Virus record (IMG/VR): IMGVR_UViG_3300022666_000086
Span: 1 to 34,444 of that record
Length of the DNA stretch: 34,444 nucleotides
Source of the DNA: a virus
Lineage: Duplodnaviria; Caudoviricetes
Strand: one strand, 5' to 3'
Shown: one piece after another, positions 16,640-33,806 of the stretch
Layout of the letters: every line of letters begins with the position of its first letter
How positions within the stretch are numbered: position 1 is the first letter of the stretch
The notes under the pieces: generated by a model
Seen by the model: only the letters and a program-made list of their open reading frames with translations
Told to the model about the DNA's origin: nothing
The model's database searches: none
Made by a program: the position numbers and the translations under genes

Positions 16640-17017
16640 TCACCTCATCTGCTTTTTTATCTGATCCCAGATCTCGTTAGCCATCTCTTCAGCAGCTTTT
16701 GGCGCTGTTTCGTCGAACGCGGGCCTCAGGAATGGTCTGGCAGGGATGTCTCGGGTCCCATATTCGTTATATCTCGCCCTTTTGGCAATCTCCGGATCGA
16801 AAATGCCGATCTCTCCTATTATCTGGCCGCTCTTGATTGTCTGGCGATGGGTGACATGCCCCACCATCTCGCTCGTATCGACCAGCGTCTTGGACGAGCC
16901 CTTCTGCCGGATCGTTGAAGGGGCATTGGGAGGAGGCACGTTAGAAAGAATCTTCTTAACGATGGCATTCTCGATCTTGATAAGAGCCTTCTCGTGTGGT
17001 CCCTTAAAATCGATCAT
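16640..17017 (-). CDS. Neck/tail completion protein (Mu gpG / P2 gpS / HK97 gp10-like)
   Basis: PPNAPSTIRQKGSSKTLVDT and NEYGTRDIPARPFLRPA motifs. Confidence 0.85.
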   Translation of the reverse strand: MIDFKGPHEKALIKIENAIVKKILSNVPPPNAPSTIRQKGSSKTLVDTSEMVGHVTHRQTIKSGQIIGEIGIFDPEIAKRARYNEYGTRDIPARPFLRPAFDETAPKAAEEMANEIWDQIKKQMR

Positions 17018-17682
17018 AGCAAAAGCCCCATCTCAAACGCATACTGCCTAGCAATATCCTGTTCAGTCCGGTGATAATCGAGGAAAGCAACCTCATCCAT
17101 CATACCTTGAACAGCTTCCGAGTCGTCACCAAAAAGCTCAATGCCTTCGCGGGTATATCCGACAGCAGTGCCCGGAGTCATTTCTATATATTTTGTTCCA
17201 TTGATATACAGATAGGCCTTTGTGCCGTCTGCAGTGACATCGCACTTATACCACCGCCCGAGCACTGCCGTGAAATCTGCCAGAGTGCCGGTTGGATAGG
17301 TGTTCGCCTCTAGCTGAATTTTGTAGCCTTCCCCGGATGGCCTGCAATAAGTCACCCTGACGCTTTTATAGGTGGTCAAAAACGGACCGGACTTGTACAT
17401 CCATAGCACAAACTCGTATCCGAACCCACTGGCTGGTTGGGTGTCGATCTTGAACCAGAAGCTCAGGCCGAAGATCTTAGTTCTCAGGTCTACGCCAACG
17501 CTATCAGAGTAATCCAGATGATCATCATTGTTGGAATCAAGGGCGTTACCAAACTTTCCAGCAGAGAATACCTTGTATGCGCTGGCGCTAAGATTCCGGC
17601 CATTTCCGGAGCTGTCTGACCCATCCGATTCCAGATGGTAAAGAGCCTGGCAGCCTGAGTGAGGTATAACTTCCCCGAGCAT
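17014..17682 (-). CDS. LamG / concanavalin-A-like lectin domain protein
   Basis: ALYHLE..GSDSSGNGRNL, GKFGNAL, LSFWFK, AYLYING, GMMDEVAF motifs. Confidence 0.88.
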   Translation of the reverse strand: MLGEVIPHSGCQALYHLESDGSDSSGNGRNLSASAYKVFSAGKFGNALDSNNDDHLDYSDSVGVDLRTKIFGLSFWFKIDTQPASGFGYEFVLWMYKSGPFLTTYKSVRVTYCRPSGEGYKIQLEANTYPTGTLADFTAVLGRWYKCDVTADGTKAYLYINGTKYIEMTPGTAVGYTREGIELFGDDSEAVQGMMDEVAFLDYHRTEQDIARQYAFEMGLLL

Positions 17683-17685
17683 GAT

Positions 17686-18801
17686 CTAGCTCCTGTATCG
17701 CCACGAGACCGGATAATAGTAGATGTAGAGATAAGCATCTGTTGGCGGAGTGGTTGAAACTGAATCGATATCCGCCGTTATTGCGCTGCCTTCTGCAACG
17801 AGAGTTGAAGGATTGGCGGCCACGTTGTCCAAATCAGACGTTGCTCCACTGGCTATCGAGGGCTTTGTGGTGAACTTGGTTGCGCCATCGTCGTTGATAT
17901 CAAAGACCGTGGCGTTGGTCGTGCCTGCGCTTTTGACTCGGGCATCCGCTGCCAGGATATAGACATCGCAAGGCGCAAACCAGGTCTTGAATGCGTCTGT
18001 GCCCGCTCCGAGCCTTCCTGGCCGGATGAACTGCTCGACCATAGCATGATTGGCACAGTATTTCATGCTCGTGAACCCGGCTGTCAGAGAGTCGCCCACT
18101 ATATCCACTGTCACCACGTTGCTGCTGTACGAAGAGCTGATCACCATGGCCGTCTGGAACGTGCTGCCCTCCAGCCAGATCAGGATCACGCCTCTTTTGA
18201 GGATCTGGTCGTAGAGGTTAGCGTTGCCCACGTCCGCAATGGTGAACTGAGTATCGGCGACCCTTGTCGGTGATCCGGGCACCGTGGTCCAGAATGAACT
18301 TGATTCTCCGGAAGCTGCATAGATCGGCGAGACTATCCTCATATCGGCCACGCCTGCGGTGCAGTAGCTTCCGTGATCCCCGCTCTGTACCCCGTCTTCA
18401 TCAACGCATATGATGGCTATCAGGTAGCATTTCAGGTTGGGGAGTTCTGGAGGTTTGGGCTGCAGGTTCTCAAGAAAGTCGGTCAGGCTGGTTGGGGTGC
18501 CCTCGGTGCCTGCGATCCTCTTGAGGGTGTCGTCGGTGCCGTCCATCACGATCAGGTCATATCTGTGCATCCCAGCTGATGCTGCAGGAATGGCGGTGAG
18601 GCTCCCCCCAGCGTATGACATCGCGGTGCCTGCATTTTTGTAGTAGCCGCTGGATACCGATATCGAAGAAACAGAAGCGCGGGATACTTCCATACCAGAT
18701 ATGCCACAGTAACCAGCGAGCGCGGCCCGTGGTGCCTGGAAGAACACCGAATGCGACCTAAGGCGGTCACCCTGTCGCGGAAAAAGAGCATATTCTGTCA
18801 A
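17686..18801 (-). CDS. Multi-domain fibre/structural protein (371 aa)
   Basis: N-terminal fibre-attachment-like region (ISVSSG...HRYDLIV...PELP...IAII.V) and a C-terminal beta domain (TVFDINDDG...GSAITADIDSV). Confidence 0.65.
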   Translation of the reverse strand: MTEYALFPRQGDRLRSHSVFFQAPRAALAGYCGISGMEVSRASVSSISVSSGYYKNAGTAMSYAGGSLTAIPAASAGMHRYDLIVMDGTDDTLKRIAGTEGTPTSLTDFLENLQPKPPELPNLKCYLIAIICVDEDGVQSGDHGSYCTAGVADMRIVSPIYAASGESSSFWTTVPGSPTRVADTQFTIADVGNANLYDQILKRGVILIWLEGSTFQTAMVISSSYSSNVVTVDIVGDSLTAGFTSMKYCANHAMVEQFIRPGRLGAGTDAFKTWFAPCDVYILAADARVKSAGTTNATVFDINDDGATKFTTKPSIASGATSDLDNVAANPSTLVAEGSAITADIDSVSTTPPTDAYLYIYYYPVSWRYRS

Positions 18802-18807
18802 TTGGTT

Positions 18808-19266
18808 CTACCACCTTGAGATCAGATTTGATAACTTGAGTTCGTCCGGATATTCTTCGGAGTCAGCCGGACCTGGGGTCTCTCCCTGTTCTGCGATTGG
18901 GGGAGAGTTGCAGACGAGGCTGATCGTCTCCTCGGAAGTCACCTTGAGTCCCTTGAGCTTCTCCATGACCTGTTTGGCGATGGGGTTGGCTATAGGCTGG
19001 AAGACGCCAGCCTGGTCGAAGCTGCCTGGTAGCTCCTCGACTATGCGATCTGCGTAGGTCTGGTAGGCTAGATAGGCGGCGTGGTTGGTTTTGGCCAGGG
19101 CTATGATCTCTGCAGAAGCCCCGGATCGGCCCGCCAGATCAGAGACGTAGGTATCGGCGTTATCAATGGCTATCTCGATAGAATCATCCGATAGCTCAAC
19201 CGCATCGCCTTCTGTAGTACCATCTTTTGCGTTGATGATCGCCCGGATGTCTGAGATAGTGGTCAT
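18808..19266 (-). CDS. Head-tail adaptor (connector) protein, putative
   Basis: MTTISDIRAII...LSDDSIEIAIDNADTYV...AAYLAY pattern typical of helical head-completion proteins. Confidence 0.65.
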   Translation of the reverse strand: MTTISDIRAIINAKDGTTEGDAVELSDDSIEIAIDNADTYVSDLAGRSGASAEIIALAKTNHAAYLAYQTYADRIVEELPGSFDQAGVFQPIANPIAKQVMEKLKGLKVTSEETISLVCNSPPIAEQGETPGPADSEEYPDELKLSNLISRW

Positions 19267-19267
19267 C

Positions 19268-19516
19268 TTACTCCATTTCTGCCAGCTTCAGTAGCTCGTC
19301 TTTGTCCTTGAACCCGGCCCGTTTCCACATGGGCGTTGGGTTGTCTATCTCCATTAGTTTTGGCGATTTTTCCGTGCCCTGATCAACAGTGATCTTTGTG
19401 TCATCGATTGCTGCAAGTCTTGCCAGATCTTCCTTCGCCCGTTTCTCATGCTCTGGCATGGCCAACAGGTTCTCGTAATCCCGCTTGGTGAGCGGGCCGT
19501 CTGGATATCCTCTCAT
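19268..19516 (-). CDS. Small protein (82 aa) adjacent to the Mtd-like gene, possible fibre chaperone/adaptor
   Basis: ATG at 19516 after GAGGT (MRGYPDGPLTKRDYENLL...DNPTPMWKRAGF); the track start at 19594 overlaps the upstream gene and is unlikely. Confidence 0.7.
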   Translation of the reverse strand: MRGYPDGPLTKRDYENLLAMPEHEKRAKEDLARLAAIDDTKITVDQGTEKSPKLMEIDNPTPMWKRAGFKDKDELLKLAEME

Positions 19517-19566
19517 TTTTATGACCTCATGATATTGATTTTGCTGCGCATAGGCACGAATAACGA

Positions 19567-19692
19567 CTACTGTGGCTCCGCGACCGCGCGGCAACCGATA
19601 ATCGAAAGCGCATCCGACCGCCGAAAACTCGCATCACGCGCCCGCGAACCGCAAATCGTCGCACCATACCAAGCACCGCCCGCAATAACCGC
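19567..19692 (-). repeat. Putative DGR variable repeat (VR) with 3' G/C-rich element
   Basis: 39 consecutive codons with no A in the third position; 9 A in the first 114 nt; putative variable codons are NNT; near-pure G/C run GCCGCGCGGTCGCGG at 19592..19578. The partner TR is not in the window. Confidence 0.7.
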
Positions 19693-20661
19693 TGCCTGTG
19701 CCTGGTATGTTCCTTGACCGTAATGGGACCCTCTGGTTCCGCTGATATTCTCGTAGCCGAACGCAATTGCTGCGGCATAATCCTCTCCGGCTATGTAGCT
19801 CTGCCGATCCTGAAGCCAAGTCCACCAGACTCCGGACATGTCCTCCAAGCCAATGTTTGAGACGATCCTTCTGGATGCAGTATCCACATGTCCGCCAACG
19901 GTCGTCGGATTCGCGCTCCCGTAGATATTCGTCTCTTCTGGCGTGCCACTGTGGAGCTGCGCAAACTCCCAGTCTGTCATCATCCTAGCGCCTATATTTT
20001 TCAGGTCGTCTGCGAAATCGTAGAAATTCCGAGAGACAGTCGCGGCAGCTCCGAATACTGATGCGATAGATGCTCCTGTGCCGGAGAGGTGGTATATCGA
20101 GGCCCACAGAGGCGCATAATTCAGGCTGTCGAAATCGGTCGGCCCTCCCCAGGCAAAACCAGGAAGGAAGCGTCCATATGGCCGGTGCTTGAGATCTTGG
20201 ATAGACCGAGGGATGATATCTCCTGCCAGGTAGCCTGTGAGGGGGTGGCCGGATATCGTGCCAACATCCGCGCATTCGCAATGGAAGCCCCCTATCTTGC
20301 GGCTGTCTGCTGCGCTGTAGCCAGCCGGGTAGGTGGTTGCAGCACTCAGAACCAGTATAGGAGAGAACCCGCTGCTCGGAAGGAGTGCATAGACGTAGAA
20401 GTCCTTGCCCGCGCGGTTGGCCGCTACTGTATAGTCGTCCGGAGTCTGAGTATCCCAGACCCAAGACTCGTTGAGGTCCATCTCCAGAGCGGAGTCTCGT
20501 TCGTAAGCATGAGCACCAGCTCCACCAATGTTCACGAGCATATGGCTGGGGCTGACAAGAGTCCTGCGGTTGGCAGCGCTATCGCTACCCTTGTTCTTCC
20601 ACATCCGGTTACGAGAATAGTAGCCGTCCTGTCTGGCGGGAAGGCGGTTAAGGAATCCCAT
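19567..20661 (-). CDS. Major tropism determinant (Mtd)-like C-type-lectin-fold adhesin; probable DGR target
   Basis: AGKDFYVYA, SRKIGGFHC, GLEDMSGVWWTW, and C-terminal GGAWYGATICGSR.......DALSIIGCRAV, matching the Bordetella BPP-1 Mtd / FGE-type CLec pattern. Confidence 0.85.
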   Translation of the reverse strand: MGFLNRLPARQDGYYSRNRMWKNKGSDSAANRRTLVSPSHMLVNIGGAGAHAYERDSALEMDLNESWVWDTQTPDDYTVAANRAGKDFYVYALLPSSGFSPILVLSAATTYPAGYSAADSRKIGGFHCECADVGTISGHPLTGYLAGDIIPRSIQDLKHRPYGRFLPGFAWGGPTDFDSLNYAPLWASIYHLSGTGASIASVFGAAATVSRNFYDFADDLKNIGARMMTDWEFAQLHSGTPEETNIYGSANPTTVGGHVDTASRRIVSNIGLEDMSGVWWTWLQDRQSYIAGEDYAAAIAFGYENISGTRGSHYGQGTYQAQAAVIAGGAWYGATICGSRARDASFRRSDALSIIGCRAVAEPQ

Positions 20662-20663
20662 AA

Positions 20664-20891
20664 TCAGCTCTCCAGGATAGCGAGGATAGCAGCGAGATCA
20701 GCTTTCATGAGGGCGATGTCAGCCCGCATAGTGCCAATATCAGTGGATGTGCTCAGATTGAGTGTAGTTAGATCGATCTGCAAGTTTTTGATGGCCTTCA
20801 GCAGAGCTATCACAGAATCGTTAGTCTCATTAGTCGAATCTGCATCTACTGCGGCAGGTGGATCGTTTACGTAGCCTTGTGAGCCGGACAT
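20664..20891 (-). CDS. Small coiled-coil protein (75 aa)
   Basis: GGAGGT RBS; heptads MRADIAL-MKADLAA-ILAILES. Confidence 0.7.
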   Translation of the reverse strand: MSGSQGYVNDPPAAVDADSTNETNDSVIALLKAIKNLQIDLTTLNLSTSTDIGTMRADIALMKADLAAILAILES

Positions 20892-21166
20892 GATTTTTTA
20901 CCTCCCTTCAATTTACCAAAGTTTGATGCTTGTAATACACCGTCCTTGATCATCTGGATCAAAGCGGGGCTCATCGTGGTCTCGTAGGTTGGACCGGCCT
21001 GGATTATCTGGCCATCCGGTAAGACGATCTGTCCGGCCCCATCAACTCTCTTTGCCTGGAAGTCCTCAGCTGCCCGGAGAGCGAATTGCTTGGAGAACTT
21101 CGAACCGCAGACGAAGATGACTTTTCCGGGCGGCTCGGACGCAGGAGACGTAGATTTCTTTGACAT
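20867..21166 (-). CDS. Hypothetical protein (99 aa), head module
   Basis: GAGGT RBS; fits the operon. Confidence 0.65.
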   Translation of the reverse strand: MSKKSTSPASEPPGKVIFVCGSKFSKQFALRAAEDFQAKRVDGAGQIVLPDGQIIQAGPTYETTMSPALIQMIKDGVLQASNFGKLKGGKKSCPAHKAT

Positions 21167-21172
21167 AAAACC

Positions 21173-21214
21173 TCAAAAAATAGTTGGTGTTGGCCCGATC
21201 AGCCAACCACCAAC
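21173..21214 (-). terminator. Hairpin plus T-tract after the capsid gene block
   Basis: GTTGGTGTTGGC (21183-21194) pairs with GCCAACCACCAAC (21202-21214, one bulge); followed on the minus strand by TATTTTTT. Confidence 0.6.
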
Positions 21215-22518
21215 ACGCTAACATATCCTGTATCTGCTCCGGTTTCGCAGGTCACCGTGAACCCGGCCTCCGTGGGAGAAGCCCAGCCCAGATCTTTGGA
21301 TGCTGCGGCTGCGCCCTTGTAGGTCAGGAACACATCGTACAGAGCATCATCCCAATCTGCATCCAGACCCATGCCCTGAGCGCCATAGGCTACCTCGTTG
21401 TTGGGTATGCCACAAAGGGTGTTCAGGGTGCCGTCTCCGGCGGTGACCTTCCCGGCCCTGCCTGCGGTGGTGCCCGAGATTACCAGAGTTCCGCTCGAAG
21501 CATCGGCTTCGACGTTGGACATATCGCCATTGATGAGGGTGGTGATCTCTGCAGGAGTCACGGCATAGATGTTGGCTACGTCGCCCGTTCCTACTGCCGT
21601 TACGCCATTGTCCGGTCCGATATCCAGCTCATCACAGCAGTCCAGGGAGTCCGCTCGGGCGATCTCTACAGTTGAGCCCGTGCCATGATCCAGGGACGTG
21701 AACACCAGATGATCTGTGCTGAATGCTACTGTCATCCTGCTGTAGCCGTGTGTAGCTCCAAGAGCCTGGACCTTTGTCTGGATCTGAGTAGCTATGGCCG
21801 CTCCGGAGTCGCATCCTGACCAGTCACAGGTGATAGTATGCCAGGTTTCGTCACCATTAGCCCTAATTTTGAACTTGGTGTCGGTCTCGGTGGTCATGTC
21901 TTCGCTGCATGATCCGCCTCCCGTGTGGGTTCCCGCAGTACATTCCAGGGTAGCGGTCTCGTCGCCATCCGCGTCGTTCTGAATCTTGATGGTGCCGTTA
22001 TGCCCTACGGTGTGCATGTCGGTAGCTTCCGCTATGCCGGTTATGAAAGGCACTGCATCATCCTGGAACCGGACGGGCGAGGCTCCGCCTGCCAACTGGA
22101 TGGTCTTCCGGGCTATCTTGGTTACGCCTACGCCAACCTGGAGGGCGGTGTCTGCCTTGCCCAGAGAGGTCTGGACGGCTGCAGCCATGTCAGTCTTGGG
22201 GATGCCCAGCTCAGGCTTGACATAAGCGGCATCTGCATGAGCATCTATCTCATTGATAGCCGCTTGGACTGAAGTCTTGGTGGTGGTTGTGAGAGCCGCC
22301 AGAGATCCGACTTTGACATCATCTGCCAGTTTGGCGTTGGTTACTGAGCCGTCTGCAGGTGAGCTGGAGGGCGAGAGTGCATTGATCTCATCGGCGGTTG
22401 CCGTGATCTTATGCCACTCACCGTCGTCCCCGAGCATATAGAGGTTCTTGATATATGCCAGGCCATCCATTTCAGGATGGCCGAATAGCATATGTCCACT
22501 CTTAAGGTTCTGTCCCAT
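21199..22518 (-). CDS. Head fibre / capsid decoration protein, putative (439 aa)
   Basis: Directly after MCP; ITATADEINAL, DGSVTNAKLA and YVKPELGIPKTDMAAAVQTSLGKADTALQ fibre-stem motifs followed by Thr/Gly-rich beta domains. Confidence 0.6.
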   Translation of the reverse strand: MGQNLKSGHMLFGHPEMDGLAYIKNLYMLGDDGEWHKITATADEINALSPSSSPADGSVTNAKLADDVKVGSLAALTTTTKTSVQAAINEIDAHADAAYVKPELGIPKTDMAAAVQTSLGKADTALQVGVGVTKIARKTIQLAGGASPVRFQDDAVPFITGIAEATDMHTVGHNGTIKIQNDADGDETATLECTAGTHTGGGSCSEDMTTETDTKFKIRANGDETWHTITCDWSGCDSGAAIATQIQTKVQALGATHGYSRMTVAFSTDHLVFTSLDHGTGSTVEIARADSLDCCDELDIGPDNGVTAVGTGDVANIYAVTPAEITTLINGDMSNVEADASSGTLVISGTTAGRAGKVTAGDGTLNTLCGIPNNEVAYGAQGMGLDADWDDALYDVFLTYKGAAAASKDLGWASPTEAGFTVTCETGADTGYVSVLVVG

Positions 22519-26369: not shown

Positions 26370-27065
26370 CTACTCCTCTATGTCCTCAACGGTCACTACA
26401 TGATTTTTTGTGACTACCATCTTTTCACCGGGGGCCAATGCCGTGGTTGGAAGAACGAGCTCTCCAAGCCTGTCATCGACTGCCTGGACATTGTACAAGG
26501 TCCGGCTGCCAGTGTTGGTAATCTCGAAGGTGTAGACCACTTCCTTGCCTATGTCGGTCACGTTGACATCCGTAAGCTTGGTGATCAGGATCTCGGGTAT
26601 GGCCTCGATCTCAAAGACGGCACTTGCATTAAGGGAAAGTGTTTTGCCCGCGCCTGTCATAGTGGCCTCCGCATAATTGATCACCGGGCCTGGGAGCATC
26701 GATTCTGTGACTTTCATCTGGGCAAAACCTTCTGCAAACTCACCGGGTCCCACTTCAGTTGTGCTCATGGTTATGGGGCCTAGCAGGTCATCTACAACTT
26801 TGATGCCAGTGAGCTTTGCAGTGCCGGTATTGGATAGCCGGAACGTGTAGTTGGCCATCTCACCGGGCTTGTAGGTCTTCTTCTCCACGTCCTTCAGGAG
26901 GATGCCGGAGGCGGTCTCGTTGATCATGATCGCAGCATCCGCCTGGTTGCTGACGGTCACGCCGGCCGAGTCTATGCCGGTAGCGGTTACGGTGTTCTTT
27001 AGCTCCGCAGAGCTGGCTATACCAAAAGCTGCAAGCAGCGCAACGAATAGTATTAGATATCTCAT
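26370..27065 (-). CDS. Secreted protein with two DUF11/DUF7507-like Ig-like domains
   Basis: Signal peptide MRYLILFVALLAAFGIASS; repeated YTF.(L/I)(S/T)NTG...L..(I/V)..VDD.LG....T..(V/L).PGE unit. Confidence 0.85.
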   Translation of the reverse strand: MRYLILFVALLAAFGIASSAELKNTVTATGIDSAGVTVSNQADAAIMINETASGILLKDVEKKTYKPGEMANYTFRLSNTGTAKLTGIKVVDDLLGPITMSTTEVGPGEFAEGFAQMKVTESMLPGPVINYAEATMTGAGKTLSLNASAVFEIEAIPEILITKLTDVNVTDIGKEVVYTFEITNTGSRTLYNVQAVDDRLGELVLPTTALAPGEKMVVTKNHVVTVEDIEE

Positions 27066-27075
27066 AAAATTTACC

Positions 27076-27909
27076 TCAAGAAGATTTGGCTGCTCGTTCT
27101 TTCCGAGCAGCCGGTACTACTTTTTCAGGTTGGGTCTCGTTCTCTGGGACTACCTCAGGAGCCGGTTCTATTGCAGGAGTGTTCAGGCTCCGCACGATCT
27201 TGCCGCCCTCCAGGCTGTAGTTGTATTTGCTGTCGTTCACCGGCAGGATGTAGATGCCCTCTGGCATATTGATGTCCTGGTCCAGGCCGGCGCAGAAGCC
27301 GAGCCAATCTTCGGGGGTGATCGGCTCGTAGCTGACGTTCAGATGGGTGTTCAGCAGGTATTTGCCTACTGCATCCAGCTCTTCGATGGTGGCCGGGCGG
27401 CCTTCAGTGTTGTTGTAGACTCTGCCCTGTATGGTTGCCAGGCCGTCTCTGGTGTCGAACCATATCATAGAATCGACGTTCTCGCCGCCTGATTCAGTAG
27501 CTGACAGGCTGATCTCGGAAGCAAACGAGGCATCACCGGAGATCTTGGTTGCCCGGTAGTCCACCTTATGGCCAGCTCCTGAGCCTTTCACGGCGTACTG
27601 GGTCTTGTAGCCTCCTTTGGCCGAAGTCACCACAAACTGGCTTTTGGCCGTCTCGACGGCAACATCCTGCCCCCATGTCCGGGAATAGTCGTACATGATG
27701 GAAGCATTCTCAGCCATAGCGATGTCTGCACTGTGCTCAGAATCGTGCCGGTAGTCCATCGTGCCCGTGCCCACCATCGAGGTGTCAAGTGTGTTCCCCG
27801 CCCCGCTGACAGCGATCAGGTAAATAGTCGTCAGGAGGCAGACAACGGCGAGAATGCAAGAAGTATAAAAGTATTTTCTGATATCTTCGGGAGAGAATAG
27901 CTTGTCCAT
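27076..27909 (-). CDS. Membrane-anchored beta-rich surface protein (277 aa)
   Basis: ATG at 27909 after GGAGGT; TM segment CILAVVCLLTTIYLIAV; six N-X-S/T sequons; P/E-rich tail. Confidence 0.75.
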   Translation of the reverse strand: MDKLFSPEDIRKYFYTSCILAVVCLLTTIYLIAVSGAGNTLDTSMVGTGTMDYRHDSEHSADIAMAENASIMYDYSRTWGQDVAVETAKSQFVVTSAKGGYKTQYAVKGSGAGHKVDYRATKISGDASFASEISLSATESGGENVDSMIWFDTRDGLATIQGRVYNNTEGRPATIEELDAVGKYLLNTHLNVSYEPITPEDWLGFCAGLDQDINMPEGIYILPVNDSKYNYSLEGGKIVRSLNTPAIEPAPEVVPENETQPEKVVPAARKERAAKSS

Positions 27910-27928
27910 TCTACCTCCGTTGGGCGGG

Positions 27929-28144
27929 TCACTGTTCATTCAGGGCGGTGGTGCAGGAATCTAGAGAGACTCGTGTCTTTTCCAGCTCCGATCTTGTGAG
28001 GCTTAGCTCTTTTTGGAGCCTCTGGTTTTCGGCACGAGAAGCCGCGAGTTCTTGGGTCAGGGGTTCCACATCATGAAATTTCTTAGCCAGCCAACAGAAT
28101 GACAGGAACAGCAGTATGACGGCCAATAAGAGAATATAGTCCAT
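27929..28144 (-). CDS. N-terminal TM plus coiled-coil protein (71 aa)
   Basis: YILLLAVILLFLSFCWL followed by heptads LAASRAENQRLQKELSLTRSELEKTRVSLDSC. Confidence 0.75.
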   Translation of the reverse strand: MDYILLLAVILLFLSFCWLAKKFHDVEPLTQELAASRAENQRLQKELSLTRSELEKTRVSLDSCTTALNEQ

Positions 28145-32340: not shown

Positions 32341-32400
32341 GAAGGTTGCGAAGGCTATTGCGTAGCTTGTGAAGGTTGCGAAGGTTCCAAGAACGTTGCG
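32341..32400. repeat. 14-bp direct repeat GAAGGTTGCGAAGG x2 (30-bp spacing) plus degenerate copies
   Basis: Exact copies at 32341-32354 and 32371-32384; related GAACGTTGCG at 32391-32400. Confidence 0.85.
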
Positions 32401-33806
32401 CCCTCTTGCATGGCCGTCTTGGTCCCGGACCAAGAGCAGTCTTCTGCAATGATGGTGCTCTGGACCGGCACCAGATCGGTCATGCAATAGCAGCCGCCTG
32501 GCGCATCTATCCTGCAATTGGTGACCTCGACATGAGACCGGCCAATGGCGTGGACACCAAAGTATCCTTCTATCAGGCAGTTGTCAAATAGGACATCAGA
32601 GCCTTCTTGGATGTAAGTCGCCCCGCCGGTCGAGTCCTCCCTAGTCTGGCTGCTCACCAGAACAGAGTTCTCCACCAGGCCGGTCCCATCCCGAATCATC
32701 AGGCCGTAAGAGCCTGTGGTATCGGTGCAGTCCATCTCGATGTCGCTCAGGGTGAAATCGTTAACCTGCCAGACTGTTACCTGGCTATCCGTCCGGAATC
32801 GTGAAGCACTCACATTGTCAGGGCTTCGGGCCTTGTAATCGTCGTTCCCATAGAGGACTAAGCCCTCTCTGCATTTCCAGCCTTCGGAGTCTATCACCGT
32901 GCTGTTGTGGCAGGTATCCAGGATGATGCCCTCCGCACCGCAGTTCTGGGCTACCACCTGGGAGACTATCTCGTTGGTGCCGCTGTCTCCAGCTCCGTTG
33001 TTCCCCAGGTAGATGCCAGATCCCCAAGAGTTCGTCAGGCCTAGCCGGTAGTATAGGCCGTTGGTCCGCTCGGACCCAACCAGGATCAGGCCTTCGCCAT
33101 CATGGGGTTGGCCGTCTGTCTGGGCTGCTCGGTTGCCATCCAGGGTGAGGTCTTGGACTGTGAAATCCTCGTACCCAGGATCATAGCCTCTGGTGCCCCT
33201 GATGAGCATCATGGCAACGTGCCTTGTGGGGCTACGTTGGCCGGGAAGCAGATGGATAACGGTCTCGTCCATCCCATCGCCGCTCATGACCATGTCCTTG
33301 TCTAGGATCTGGATGGCACTGTAGAAGATGTTAGAGCCGTCCGGGTTGAGTGCGAATGAATAAGGAGCTGATAAATTGTAGTGGCCCGCTCCAATGTGCA
33401 GGCTGCCGCCGTCGGGGGTAGCATTTATGGCCGCCTTGAACAGGTCCGCTGCATCCGATGATACGGGCAATGCTGCTATGGGGTCTCCGGCGGCTTCTGT
33501 GATAATGAAATTGTCCTTCTGGTAGATCCGGACATCGTAGGAGCTTTCTGGCTCCGGTGCTGGTTCGGCTTCTGGCTCGGGGTCGATCTCAGCTTCGGGT
33601 TCCAGCTCGATCTCCGCAGGCGATACGCCGATCTCGGGCTCAAATTCGGGAAACGTGATGTTGAGATGGGAGATGTTGACCGTCTGTAGATCTGGCATCA
33701 CGATCTGGGGTGCCTGGATGTCCGAGAAGCTGAATGGAGTGCGATAGACACCCACGGAGCCGCCGATGAGCAAGGCTAAGAGGAGTAATCCGAATATGAG
33801 TCTCAA
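32355..33806 (-). CDS. Secreted right-handed beta-helix (pectin-lyase-like) protein (483 aa)
   Basis: Signal peptide MRLIFGLLLLALLIGGSVG; P/E linker; beta-helix motifs LHIGAGHYNL, GDGMDETVI, LTLDGNR, GSGIYLG; TTG start. Confidence 0.88.
   Translation of the reverse strand: MRLIFGLLLLALLIGGSVGVYRTPFSFSDIQAPQIVMPDLQTVNISHLNITFPEFEPEIGVSPAEIELEPEAEIDPEPEAEPAPEPESSYDVRIYQKDNFIITEAAGDPIAALPVSSDAADLFKAAINATPDGGSLHIGAGHYNLSAPYSFALNPDGSNIFYSAIQILDKDMVMSGDGMDETVIHLLPGQRSPTRHVAMMLIRGTRGYDPGYEDFTVQDLTLDGNRAAQTDGQPHDGEGLILVGSERTNGLYYRLGLTNSWGSGIYLGNNGAGDSGTNEIVSQVVAQNCGAEGIILDTCHNSTVIDSEGWKCREGLVLYGNDDYKARSPDNVSASRFRTDSQVTVWQVNDFTLSDIEMDCTDTTGSYGLMIRDGTGLVENSVLVSSQTREDSTGGATYIQEGSDVLFDNCLIEGYFGVHAIGRSHVEVTNCRIDAPGGCYCMTDLVPVQSTIIAEDCSWSGTKTAMQEGATFLEPSQPSQATQ

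What the first reader, a model, noticed from the sequence alone, without database searches (positions are those of the whole stretch)
19567..19692. Orphan DGR variable repeat on an Mtd-like adhesin, with a predictable template repeat
Seen: the last 42 codons read GCG GTT ATT GCG GGC GGT GCT TGG TAT GGT GCG ACG ATT TGC GGT TCG CGG GCG CGT GAT GCG AGT TTT CGG CGG TCG GAT GCG CTT TCG ATT ATC GGT TGC CGC GCG GTC GCG GAG CCA CAG TAG. No codon ends in A for 39 codons, whereas the codons just upstream (CAA GGA ACA..GCA..GCA) often do, giving a sharp boundary at 19692. Scaffold codons avoid A (GCG, TCG, CGG, GGT), putative variable codons are NNT, and a G/C run precedes the stop. Established: in the BPP-1 DGR, adenine-specific mutagenic retrohoming turns AAY codons of TR into NNY in the VR of a CLec-fold Mtd. 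Inference: this gene is being or was diversified, and TR should be close to GGC GGT AAT TGG AAT AAT GCG ACG AAT TGC GGT TCG CGG GCG CGT AAT GCG AAT AAT...AAT GCG AAT TCG AAT ATC GGT TGC CGC. I found no TR, avd or RT in the ~19 kb and ~15 kb flanks, so the cassette is remote, acts in trans, or was lost.
Basis: partly seen in the sequence, partly recalled or inferred. Interest (0 to 1): 0.88.

Follow-up and report, generated by a model that had tools for sequence, protein, structure and literature searches.

The report
Orphaned DGR target in methanogen virus
The tip of this virus's predicted receptor-binding protein carries the adenine-specific signature of a diversity-generating retroelement, but the template, reverse transcriptase and half of the target hairpin that follow the gene in close relatives are deleted here, so the tip is likely frozen: a real but known kind of relic.

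Summary
The variable repeat (VR) is real. Window 19577-19693 differs from the template repeat (TR) of close relatives at 27 of 38 TR adenines and 0 of 79 other bases. The gene matches Bordetella Mtd by sequence and fold. The window is 89% identical over 31 kb to vir525, a Methanosarcinales virus. In intact relatives, hairpin, TR, reverse transcriptase (RT) and a 95-aa gene directly follow the stop codon. Here 1,531 nt are missing and the junction cuts the hairpin; an independent contig has the same junction. So the cassette was lost, and nothing points to a remote copy. Loss is common: only 2 of 28 distinct VRs keep TR and RT, with 12 different breakpoints. One breakpoint class carries VRs from two TR alleles, so cassette-less viruses likely gain new tips by recombination; action in trans is not excluded. 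Decayed DGRs are published for crAss-like phages, and this scan found similar orphans on other DNA before. Interest 0.33.

The parts
19567..20661 (-). Mtd-like DGR target gene, 364 aa
   Evidence: Pfam mtd_2nd E 5.5e-15; PHROG 11262 tail protein E 2.5e-39; phmmer to Mtd structures E 2e-9 over residues 78-360; Foldseek to 1yu0-1yu4 E 5e-11 to 7e-10
19577..19693 (-). Variable repeat: the 117 nt homologous to the TR of relatives, with ten AAT-derived codons
   Evidence: 27 of 38 TR adenines differ, 0 of 79 other bases
19567..19596 (-). G/C-rich 3' end of the VR and the last codons; IMH-like position (inferred)
   Evidence: TR homology ends at 19577 and the two copies diverge beyond it; function not tested
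19542..19555 (-). Truncated target hairpin: 8-nt left arm, 3-nt loop, 3 of 8 nt of the right arm
   Evidence: Intact relatives fold at -9.0 kcal/mol, the window at -1.5; alignment
19541..19542 (-). Deletion junction; with a second junction near 19531 it accounts for 1,531 nt missing (stop to next gene 50 nt here, 1,581 nt in L004 and L008)
   Evidence: same junction in L078; joint in run X1
19532..19541 (-). 10-nt remnant of the spacer that precedes the RT start codon in relatives
   Evidence: matches the RT leader of L028, L030, L105 and the RT-less L005
19268..19516 (-). 82-aa ORF of unknown function that follows the cassette in most of the closest relatives
   Evidence: tblastn hits 57-100% in close loci, none in the distant loci whose RT is 38-63% identical; no Pfam or PHROG hit

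Best explanation
This is the variable repeat of a diversity-generating retroelement (DGR) on an Mtd-like protein of a vir525-like virus that likely infects methanogens; the TR, RT and a 95-aa gene found after the stop in close relatives are deleted here, so this genome likely cannot rewrite its own VR. Shown: the adenine-specific VR/TR match, the intact order in relatives (target, hairpin, TR, RT, 95-aa gene, 82-aa gene), the missing 1,531 nt and the cut hairpin. Inferred: an ancestor wrote the VR by mutagenic retrohoming. The cassette was then probably lost in two steps: first RT plus the 95-aa gene (the state of L005), then hairpin arm through TR. One receptor specificity is now fixed. Over longer times cassette-less viruses likely gain new tips by homologous recombination with cassette-bearing relatives, because the target module is shared between otherwise unlike virus backbones.
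For: VR vs TR: 27 of 38 and 0 of 79. Intact cassette in L004, in the L008 group and in vir525; RT is Pfam RVT_1 E 3e-21 and PHROG 1423 E 2e-122, with a YCDD motif. The junction keeps remnants from both sides and shares its right part with L005. L078 has the same junction with flanks about 90% identical, so it is not a one-off assembly error. Twelve different breakpoints occur among 28 distinct VRs. A complete relative with terminal repeats (G006) has no RT, G001 (82% complete) only a 22-residue scrap, G002 (62%) none; intact controls G005 and G010 match. In BPP-1, breaking the stem cut tropism switching over 1000-fold (PMC3240598, passages). For recombination: L013/L081 are 100% identical over 800 nt downstream but 94% upstream, L073/L085 99.9% and 90%; 0 of 37 same-junction pairs are 99% or more alike on both flanks. 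Junction J2 carries VRs of two TR alleles (5 and 3 haplotypes) and a different VR family in L099. Most relatives match the window only over this module within 10-kb flanks.
Against: The record is 45% complete by CheckV, so a second cassette in the unseen part is not excluded. Orphan VRs show no more decay at non-adenine sites than VRs with a TR in cis (22 of 1,809 vs 3 of 395, P 0.6), which fits recent loss or refreshment, not long freezing. VRs are also identical across 5 records of an intact cassette (L008 group), so consensus contigs cannot tell active from frozen. No raw reads were available. The X1 joint has 30 letters on its short side, one under the tool's bar, and X1 may be the window's source. 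The hairpin requirement is borrowed from BPP-1; this loop is 3 nt, not GRNA. Mosaic contigs could be assembly chimeras. No intact parent with the window's exact next-gene leader was sampled.
Confidence: 0.8

Rival explanations
1. The VR is still rewritten in trans, by the TR RNA and RT of a co-infecting cassette-bearing virus, through a route that does not need the hairpin.
For: Eight distinct VRs share junction J2 and differ at 10-21 of 38 adenine sites. The window VR has 0 of 79 non-adenine mismatches to the TR, and orphan VRs are not more decayed. Intact and deleted forms occur in one run (X5). BPP-1 components work in trans from a plasmid (PMC3240598, PMC5758913). DGR cDNA integrates without IMH when RecT is supplied (10.1101/2025.03.24.644984), and vir525 is annotated with a RecT-like gene.
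Against: The hairpin is cut here and in junction classes J1-J3. No same-junction pair has near-identical flanks with a re-randomised VR (0 of 37). L001 and L013 share two non-adenine changes and differ at only 5 adenine sites, as expected for descent without rewriting. The RecT family profile matched 0 of 5 related records.
Confidence: 0.1
2. A TR-RT cassette lies in the unsequenced part of the same viral genome and targets this gene from a distance.
For: The record is linear and 45% complete. Non-adjacent targets within 50 kb occur in phage DGRs (PMC5758913).
Against: Remnants of hairpin and RT leader show that the local cassette was deleted. No full RT in 5 of 5 other records that lack the local cassette (G001, G002, G003, G004, G008) nor in G006 and G009; only G006 is complete. 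No second TR copy in G001-G003.
Confidence: 0.05
3. The junction is an assembly artefact, or this VR is mis-joined to it from a co-occurring virus.
For: VR and junction are separated by about 60 nt shared by both viruses seen in X1, and short contigs do not link them.
Against: The junction is not a VR/TR collapse. It recurs in L078 with a one-base difference and about 90% identical flanks. X1 holds two VR contigs and two joined forms, and both joined forms lack the TR, so either pairing leaves an orphan VR.
Confidence: 0.05

Closest known systems
Bordetella phage BPP-1 DGR (mtd-VR, hairpin, avd, TR, brt)
   Same: Mtd-like target with the VR at the 3' end (28% identity); adenine-specific TR/VR differences; 8-bp stem after the stop in intact relatives.
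   Different: Archaeal-virus context; AAT rather than AAC codons; no Avd-like gene, and a 95-aa gene after the RT instead; 3-nt loop; in this genome TR, RT and half the stem are gone.
Caudoviricetes sp. vir525 (BK063673.1; host Methanosarcinales as written in the record)
   Same: 89% identity over 31,006 aligned nt, terminase 99%, same gene order around the target; RT 91% identical to that of L008.
   Different: vir525 keeps TR, RT and the 95-aa gene, and carries another VR/TR family on a 63%-identical target.
Incomplete DGR cassettes of crAss-like phages, genus I (Morozova et al. 2020, PMC7290462)
   Same: A minority complete (15 of 91) and most incomplete (66); VR in 80 genomes, TR in 30; no avd.
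   Different: Bacterial host, another target protein and VR class; in the passages and discussion I read, no breakpoint series or exchange of VRs is analysed.
ANMV-1 DGR (Paul et al. 2015, PMC4372165)
   Same: DGR in a virus of archaea, on a CLec-fold target near structural genes.
   Different: Intact, with Avd annotated; marine seep; I did not compare its sequence.

Membership tests
DGR target gene (VR-bearing, Mtd/CLec type) | C-terminal Mtd-like/CLec fold | tested here: met
   model mean pLDDT 66 and under 50 over residues 318-352, so the VR loop itself is not resolved
DGR target gene (VR-bearing, Mtd/CLec type) | VR differs from a cognate TR only at TR adenines | tested here: met
   27 of 38 vs 0 of 79 against the TR of L004; over 28 haplotypes 749 of 1,064 vs 35 of 2,212
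Functional DGR cassette | TR in the same genome | tested here: not met
   none in the 34,444 nt held; record 45% complete
Functional DGR cassette | DGR reverse transcriptase in the same genome | tested here: not met
   present in relatives
Functional DGR cassette | DNA hairpin after the VR | tested here: not met
   3 of 8 right-arm bases left; -1.5 vs -9.0 kcal/mol
Functional DGR cassette | IMH/IMH* pair | tested here: inconclusive
   G/C-rich VR end and divergence from the TR beyond 19577; function untested
Functional DGR cassette | Accessory gene (Avd, HRDC, MSL or CH1; absent in some DGRs) | tested here: not met
   none in the window; the 95-aa gene of relatives has no Pfam hit, pI 7.0 and a mostly beta model, unlike Avd
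Functional DGR cassette | Ongoing variation at TR-adenine sites among molecules | not testable with these tools
   only contigs were served; they drop rare variants
vir525-like viruses of Methanosarcinales | Genome-wide similarity and shared terminase | tested here: met
vir525-like viruses of Methanosarcinales | Host link (CRISPR spacer or provirus) | not tested

The most novel reading that the evidence does not exclude
A shared-library population: a minority of these methanogen viruses keep the DGR and make new receptor tips, while the cassette-less majority, this one included, are freeloaders that keep picking up fresh VRs from them, by recombination across the short constant 3' end or, less likely (about 0.08), by hairpin-independent retrohoming in trans.
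Probability: 0.35. Interest if true: 0.62.

Novelty: new member of a known kind. Interest (0 to 1): 0.33.

Why it matters
Surveys that start from the RT miss such targets, so DGR-shaped receptor proteins in viruses of methanogens are probably undercounted. The series of 12 breakpoints gives a natural test of a modelled idea, that a hypermutator is dropped once a good receptor variant is in hand (10.64898/2026.02.18.706561, passages). If cassette-less viruses still draw new tips from cassette-bearing neighbours, DGR diversity would act as a population-level resource. The single orphan VR is ordinary.

Tried and rejected
The run of codons without third-position A as proof: rejected, longer runs occur in 3 other genes. 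A TR or RT in the window: none. A cognate TR in run X1: no contig depth over the TR in X1, near none in X2 and X3, cover in X5; a hole in contigs proves nothing, so I do not count it as evidence. One X1 contig matches the window VR exactly at depth 17.4 beside flanks at 18.1-20.5; contig depth cannot show that the VR is uniform. Excess decay of orphan VRs: not found. Same-flank pairs with re-randomised VRs: 0 of 37. RecT family in relatives: 0 of 5. Host from genome collection: uninformative; a homologue search with the DUF7507 protein 26370-27065 gave no host name beyond vir525. Fold of the 95-aa gene product: good model (pLDDT 89) but no Foldseek match under E 0.05; the wider fold search gave no result. 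The paper I recall as the source of vir525 (Medvedeva et al. 2023) is not held, so whether it describes this DGR is unchecked. PMC9723712 (one passage) and PMC10743442 (no hits for five terms) added nothing.

Full report
Observation. No codon ends in A over codons 324-362, but 3 of the other 32 ORFs tested have longer runs (41, 43, 45), so that figure alone is not beyond chance. The window holds no second copy of the region and no RT.

The gene and the virus. The protein matches Pfam mtd_2nd (E 5.5e-15), PHROG 11262 (E 2.5e-39) and the solved Bordetella Mtd proteins by sequence (E 2e-9, residues 78-360) and by fold (Foldseek E 5e-11 to 7e-10 for 5 Mtd entries, next hit E 0.06). The model is weak over the VR (pLDDT under 50 at 318-352). 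The window is one contig, 45% complete by CheckV, with terminase, sheath, tape-measure and baseplate genes. Its terminase is 99% identical to that of vir525, and the DNA aligns over 31,006 nt at 89%. The vir525 record gives Methanosarcinales as host. I did not test the host myself. The target gene lies among head and neck genes, so 'tail tip' is not shown.

The TR exists in relatives. Scans returned 55 viral, 7 genome and 79 metagenome loci. In L004, L005, the L008 group, L015 and L077 a 117-nt repeat begins 51-52 nt after the stop. Against the L004 TR the window VR (19577-19693) differs at 27 of 38 adenines and 0 of 79 other bases. An ungapped scan of these loci, the two vir525 stretches and the window (the 10 loci left out as duplicates) found 41 with a VR of this type, 28 distinct; they differ from the TR at 749 of 1,064 adenine cells and 35 of 2,212 others. 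L078 was missed by this scan because of a 3-nt insertion, and L150 was not captured either.

What is missing. In L004 and L008 the order after the stop is: an 8-bp stem with a 3-nt loop, TR, spacer, a 332-aa RT (RVT_1, PHROG 1423, YCDD), a 95-aa ORF, then the 82-aa ORF; 1,581 nt from stop to that ORF. vir525 has the same order with another VR family. In the window the distance is 50 nt: 25 nt identical to the intact form, ending 3 nt into the right arm of the stem; 10 nt that match the RT leader of relatives; 15 nt of the next gene's leader. Predicted DNA folding of the first 45 nt falls from -9.0 to -1.5 kcal/mol. L005 keeps hairpin and TR, lacks RT and the 95-aa ORF, and shares the window's right-hand part, so I infer two deletions in turn. 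L078 has the window's junction with flanks 90-91% identical. Run X1 shows the joint in one contig, with 30 letters on the short side, one under the tool's bar, and X1 may be the source sample.

Loss is frequent. Of the 28 distinct VRs, 2 have TR, RT and the 95-aa ORF (L004; L008 group), 2 have a TR with the RT deleted (L005, L015), 1 has a TR at a contig end (L077) and 23, the window included, have no whole TR in cis. I count 12 different breakpoints: ten classes without a TR, plus L005 and L015. In L151 a TnpB-like insertion (named from the look of the ORF, not from a search) replaces TR and RT; L076 ends 56 nt after the VR and is uncertain. Caveat: active VRs and TR repeats break assemblies, so intact cassettes are probably under-counted. 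Whole-record searches found a full RT in 2 of 10 records (G005, G010), a split one in G007, a 22-residue scrap in G001 and none in 6, among them the complete G006. TR queries hit only the local VR or TR.

Frozen, refreshed or rewritten. In BPP-1, disrupting the stem cut tropism switching over 1000-fold (PMC3240598, passages), so the window's VR is likely not a usable target; this is borrowed from another system. Yet VRs are not fixed across a junction class: J2 has 8 VRs that differ at 10-21 adenine sites, 5 closest to one TR allele and 3 to another, and L099 joins J2 to a different VR family. Orphan VRs are no more decayed than VRs beside a TR (22 of 1,809 vs 3 of 395, P 0.6). Recombination explains this best: none of 37 same-junction pairs is 99% alike on both flanks, two pairs are near-identical downstream but 90-94% upstream, and most of 15 close loci match the window only over this module. 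Repeated deletion at the same spot, assembly chimeras and action in trans remain open, because only contigs were served.

The scaffold G's. The twelve TR adenines that follow a C read G in 327 of 336 cells, including five synonymous third positions, while adenines in AAT codons take all four bases. In cis pairs the same holds for CAG (115 of 118 in close loci, 54 of 55 in distant ones) and CAC (29 of 32; 33 of 34), and less strictly for GAG and TAG (18 of 23 in distant loci) (pairs with under 5 adenine mismatches left out). A bias to G when the template adenine precedes G is published for the BPP-1 RT (10.1101/2025.03.24.644984, passages; context effects also in PMC12875486, passages). Near-fixation is not explained by a 30% error rate alone; I leave it open.

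The 95-aa ORF. It follows the RT in 40 of 45 loci with a near-full RT hit, duplicates included. It has no Pfam hit, pI 7.0, a confident mostly beta model, only weak Foldseek rows to OB-type domains (E 0.05 or more) and one Atlas neighbour cluster in which 44% of members carry Phi29_Phage_SSB. It fits none of the four accessory classes by size and description in PMC5758913 section 21; I could not compare it with PAG1-4, which are in supplements I did not open. A single-strand-binding accessory role is a lead only.

Prior knowledge. Morozova et al. found 15 complete and 66 incomplete cassettes in 91 crAss-like genomes (PMC7290462, passages and discussion). DGRs in archaeal viruses are known (PMC4372165, passages). 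Roux et al. (10.1101/2020.04.01.020958, passages) class DGRs as active or inactive from read variation. Searches gave no paper on DGR loss in Methanosarcinales viruses; the paper I recall as vir525's source is not held. The scan has noted similar orphans in at least 6 other genomes; my reading was set before I looked.

Verdict. A real DGR variable repeat whose cassette was deleted: a new member of a known kind. It is not a member of the functional DGRs, since TR, RT and hairpin were tested and not met. Confidence 0.8, interest 0.33.

Noticed in passing
L008:12746-13033 (absent from the window): A 95-aa ORF follows the RT in 40 of 45 loci, also in distant phages at 28-48% identity; beta-rich model, weak OB-fold and SSB hints; a candidate DGR accessory gene in place of Avd.
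   Followed up: partly
window 19577-19693 against L004:3305-3421: TR adenines after C read G in 327 of 336 VR cells, also at synonymous sites; stronger than the published bias seems to predict.
   Followed up: partly
window 19268-19516(-): An 82-aa ORF of no known family travels with the Mtd module in close relatives but not in distant phage loci; perhaps an attachment or chaperone partner.
   Followed up: partly
L151:192-1500; L077 and L076 contig ends: An insertion-sequence-like element replaces TR and RT in L151; similar-looking ends follow the TR in L077 and interrupt the next gene in L076.
   Followed up: partly
L030:11571-11689 and vir525 TR (L018:11212-11328): Part of the TR looks mutated like a VR (fewer adenines: 23 and 25 against 33-36 in relatives), as if the template had been partly overwritten.
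   Followed up: no
L078:1306-1425: VR with an in-frame 3-nt insertion among the variable codons.
   Followed up: partly
G007 (L019): RT match is split (residues 1-147 and 184-332), a 36-37 residue gap, in a complete genome with terminal repeats.
   Followed up: partly
window 17014-22518(-): The Mtd-like gene sits among head and neck genes, beside a LamG-domain gene and two fibre-like genes, not by the baseplate; it may be a head or collar fibre.
   Followed up: no
window 26370-27939(-) and 32355-33806(-): Predicted secreted or membrane-anchored proteins (DUF7507/DUF11 repeat; beta-helix) inside the head-gene block, conserved in relatives.
   Followed up: partly
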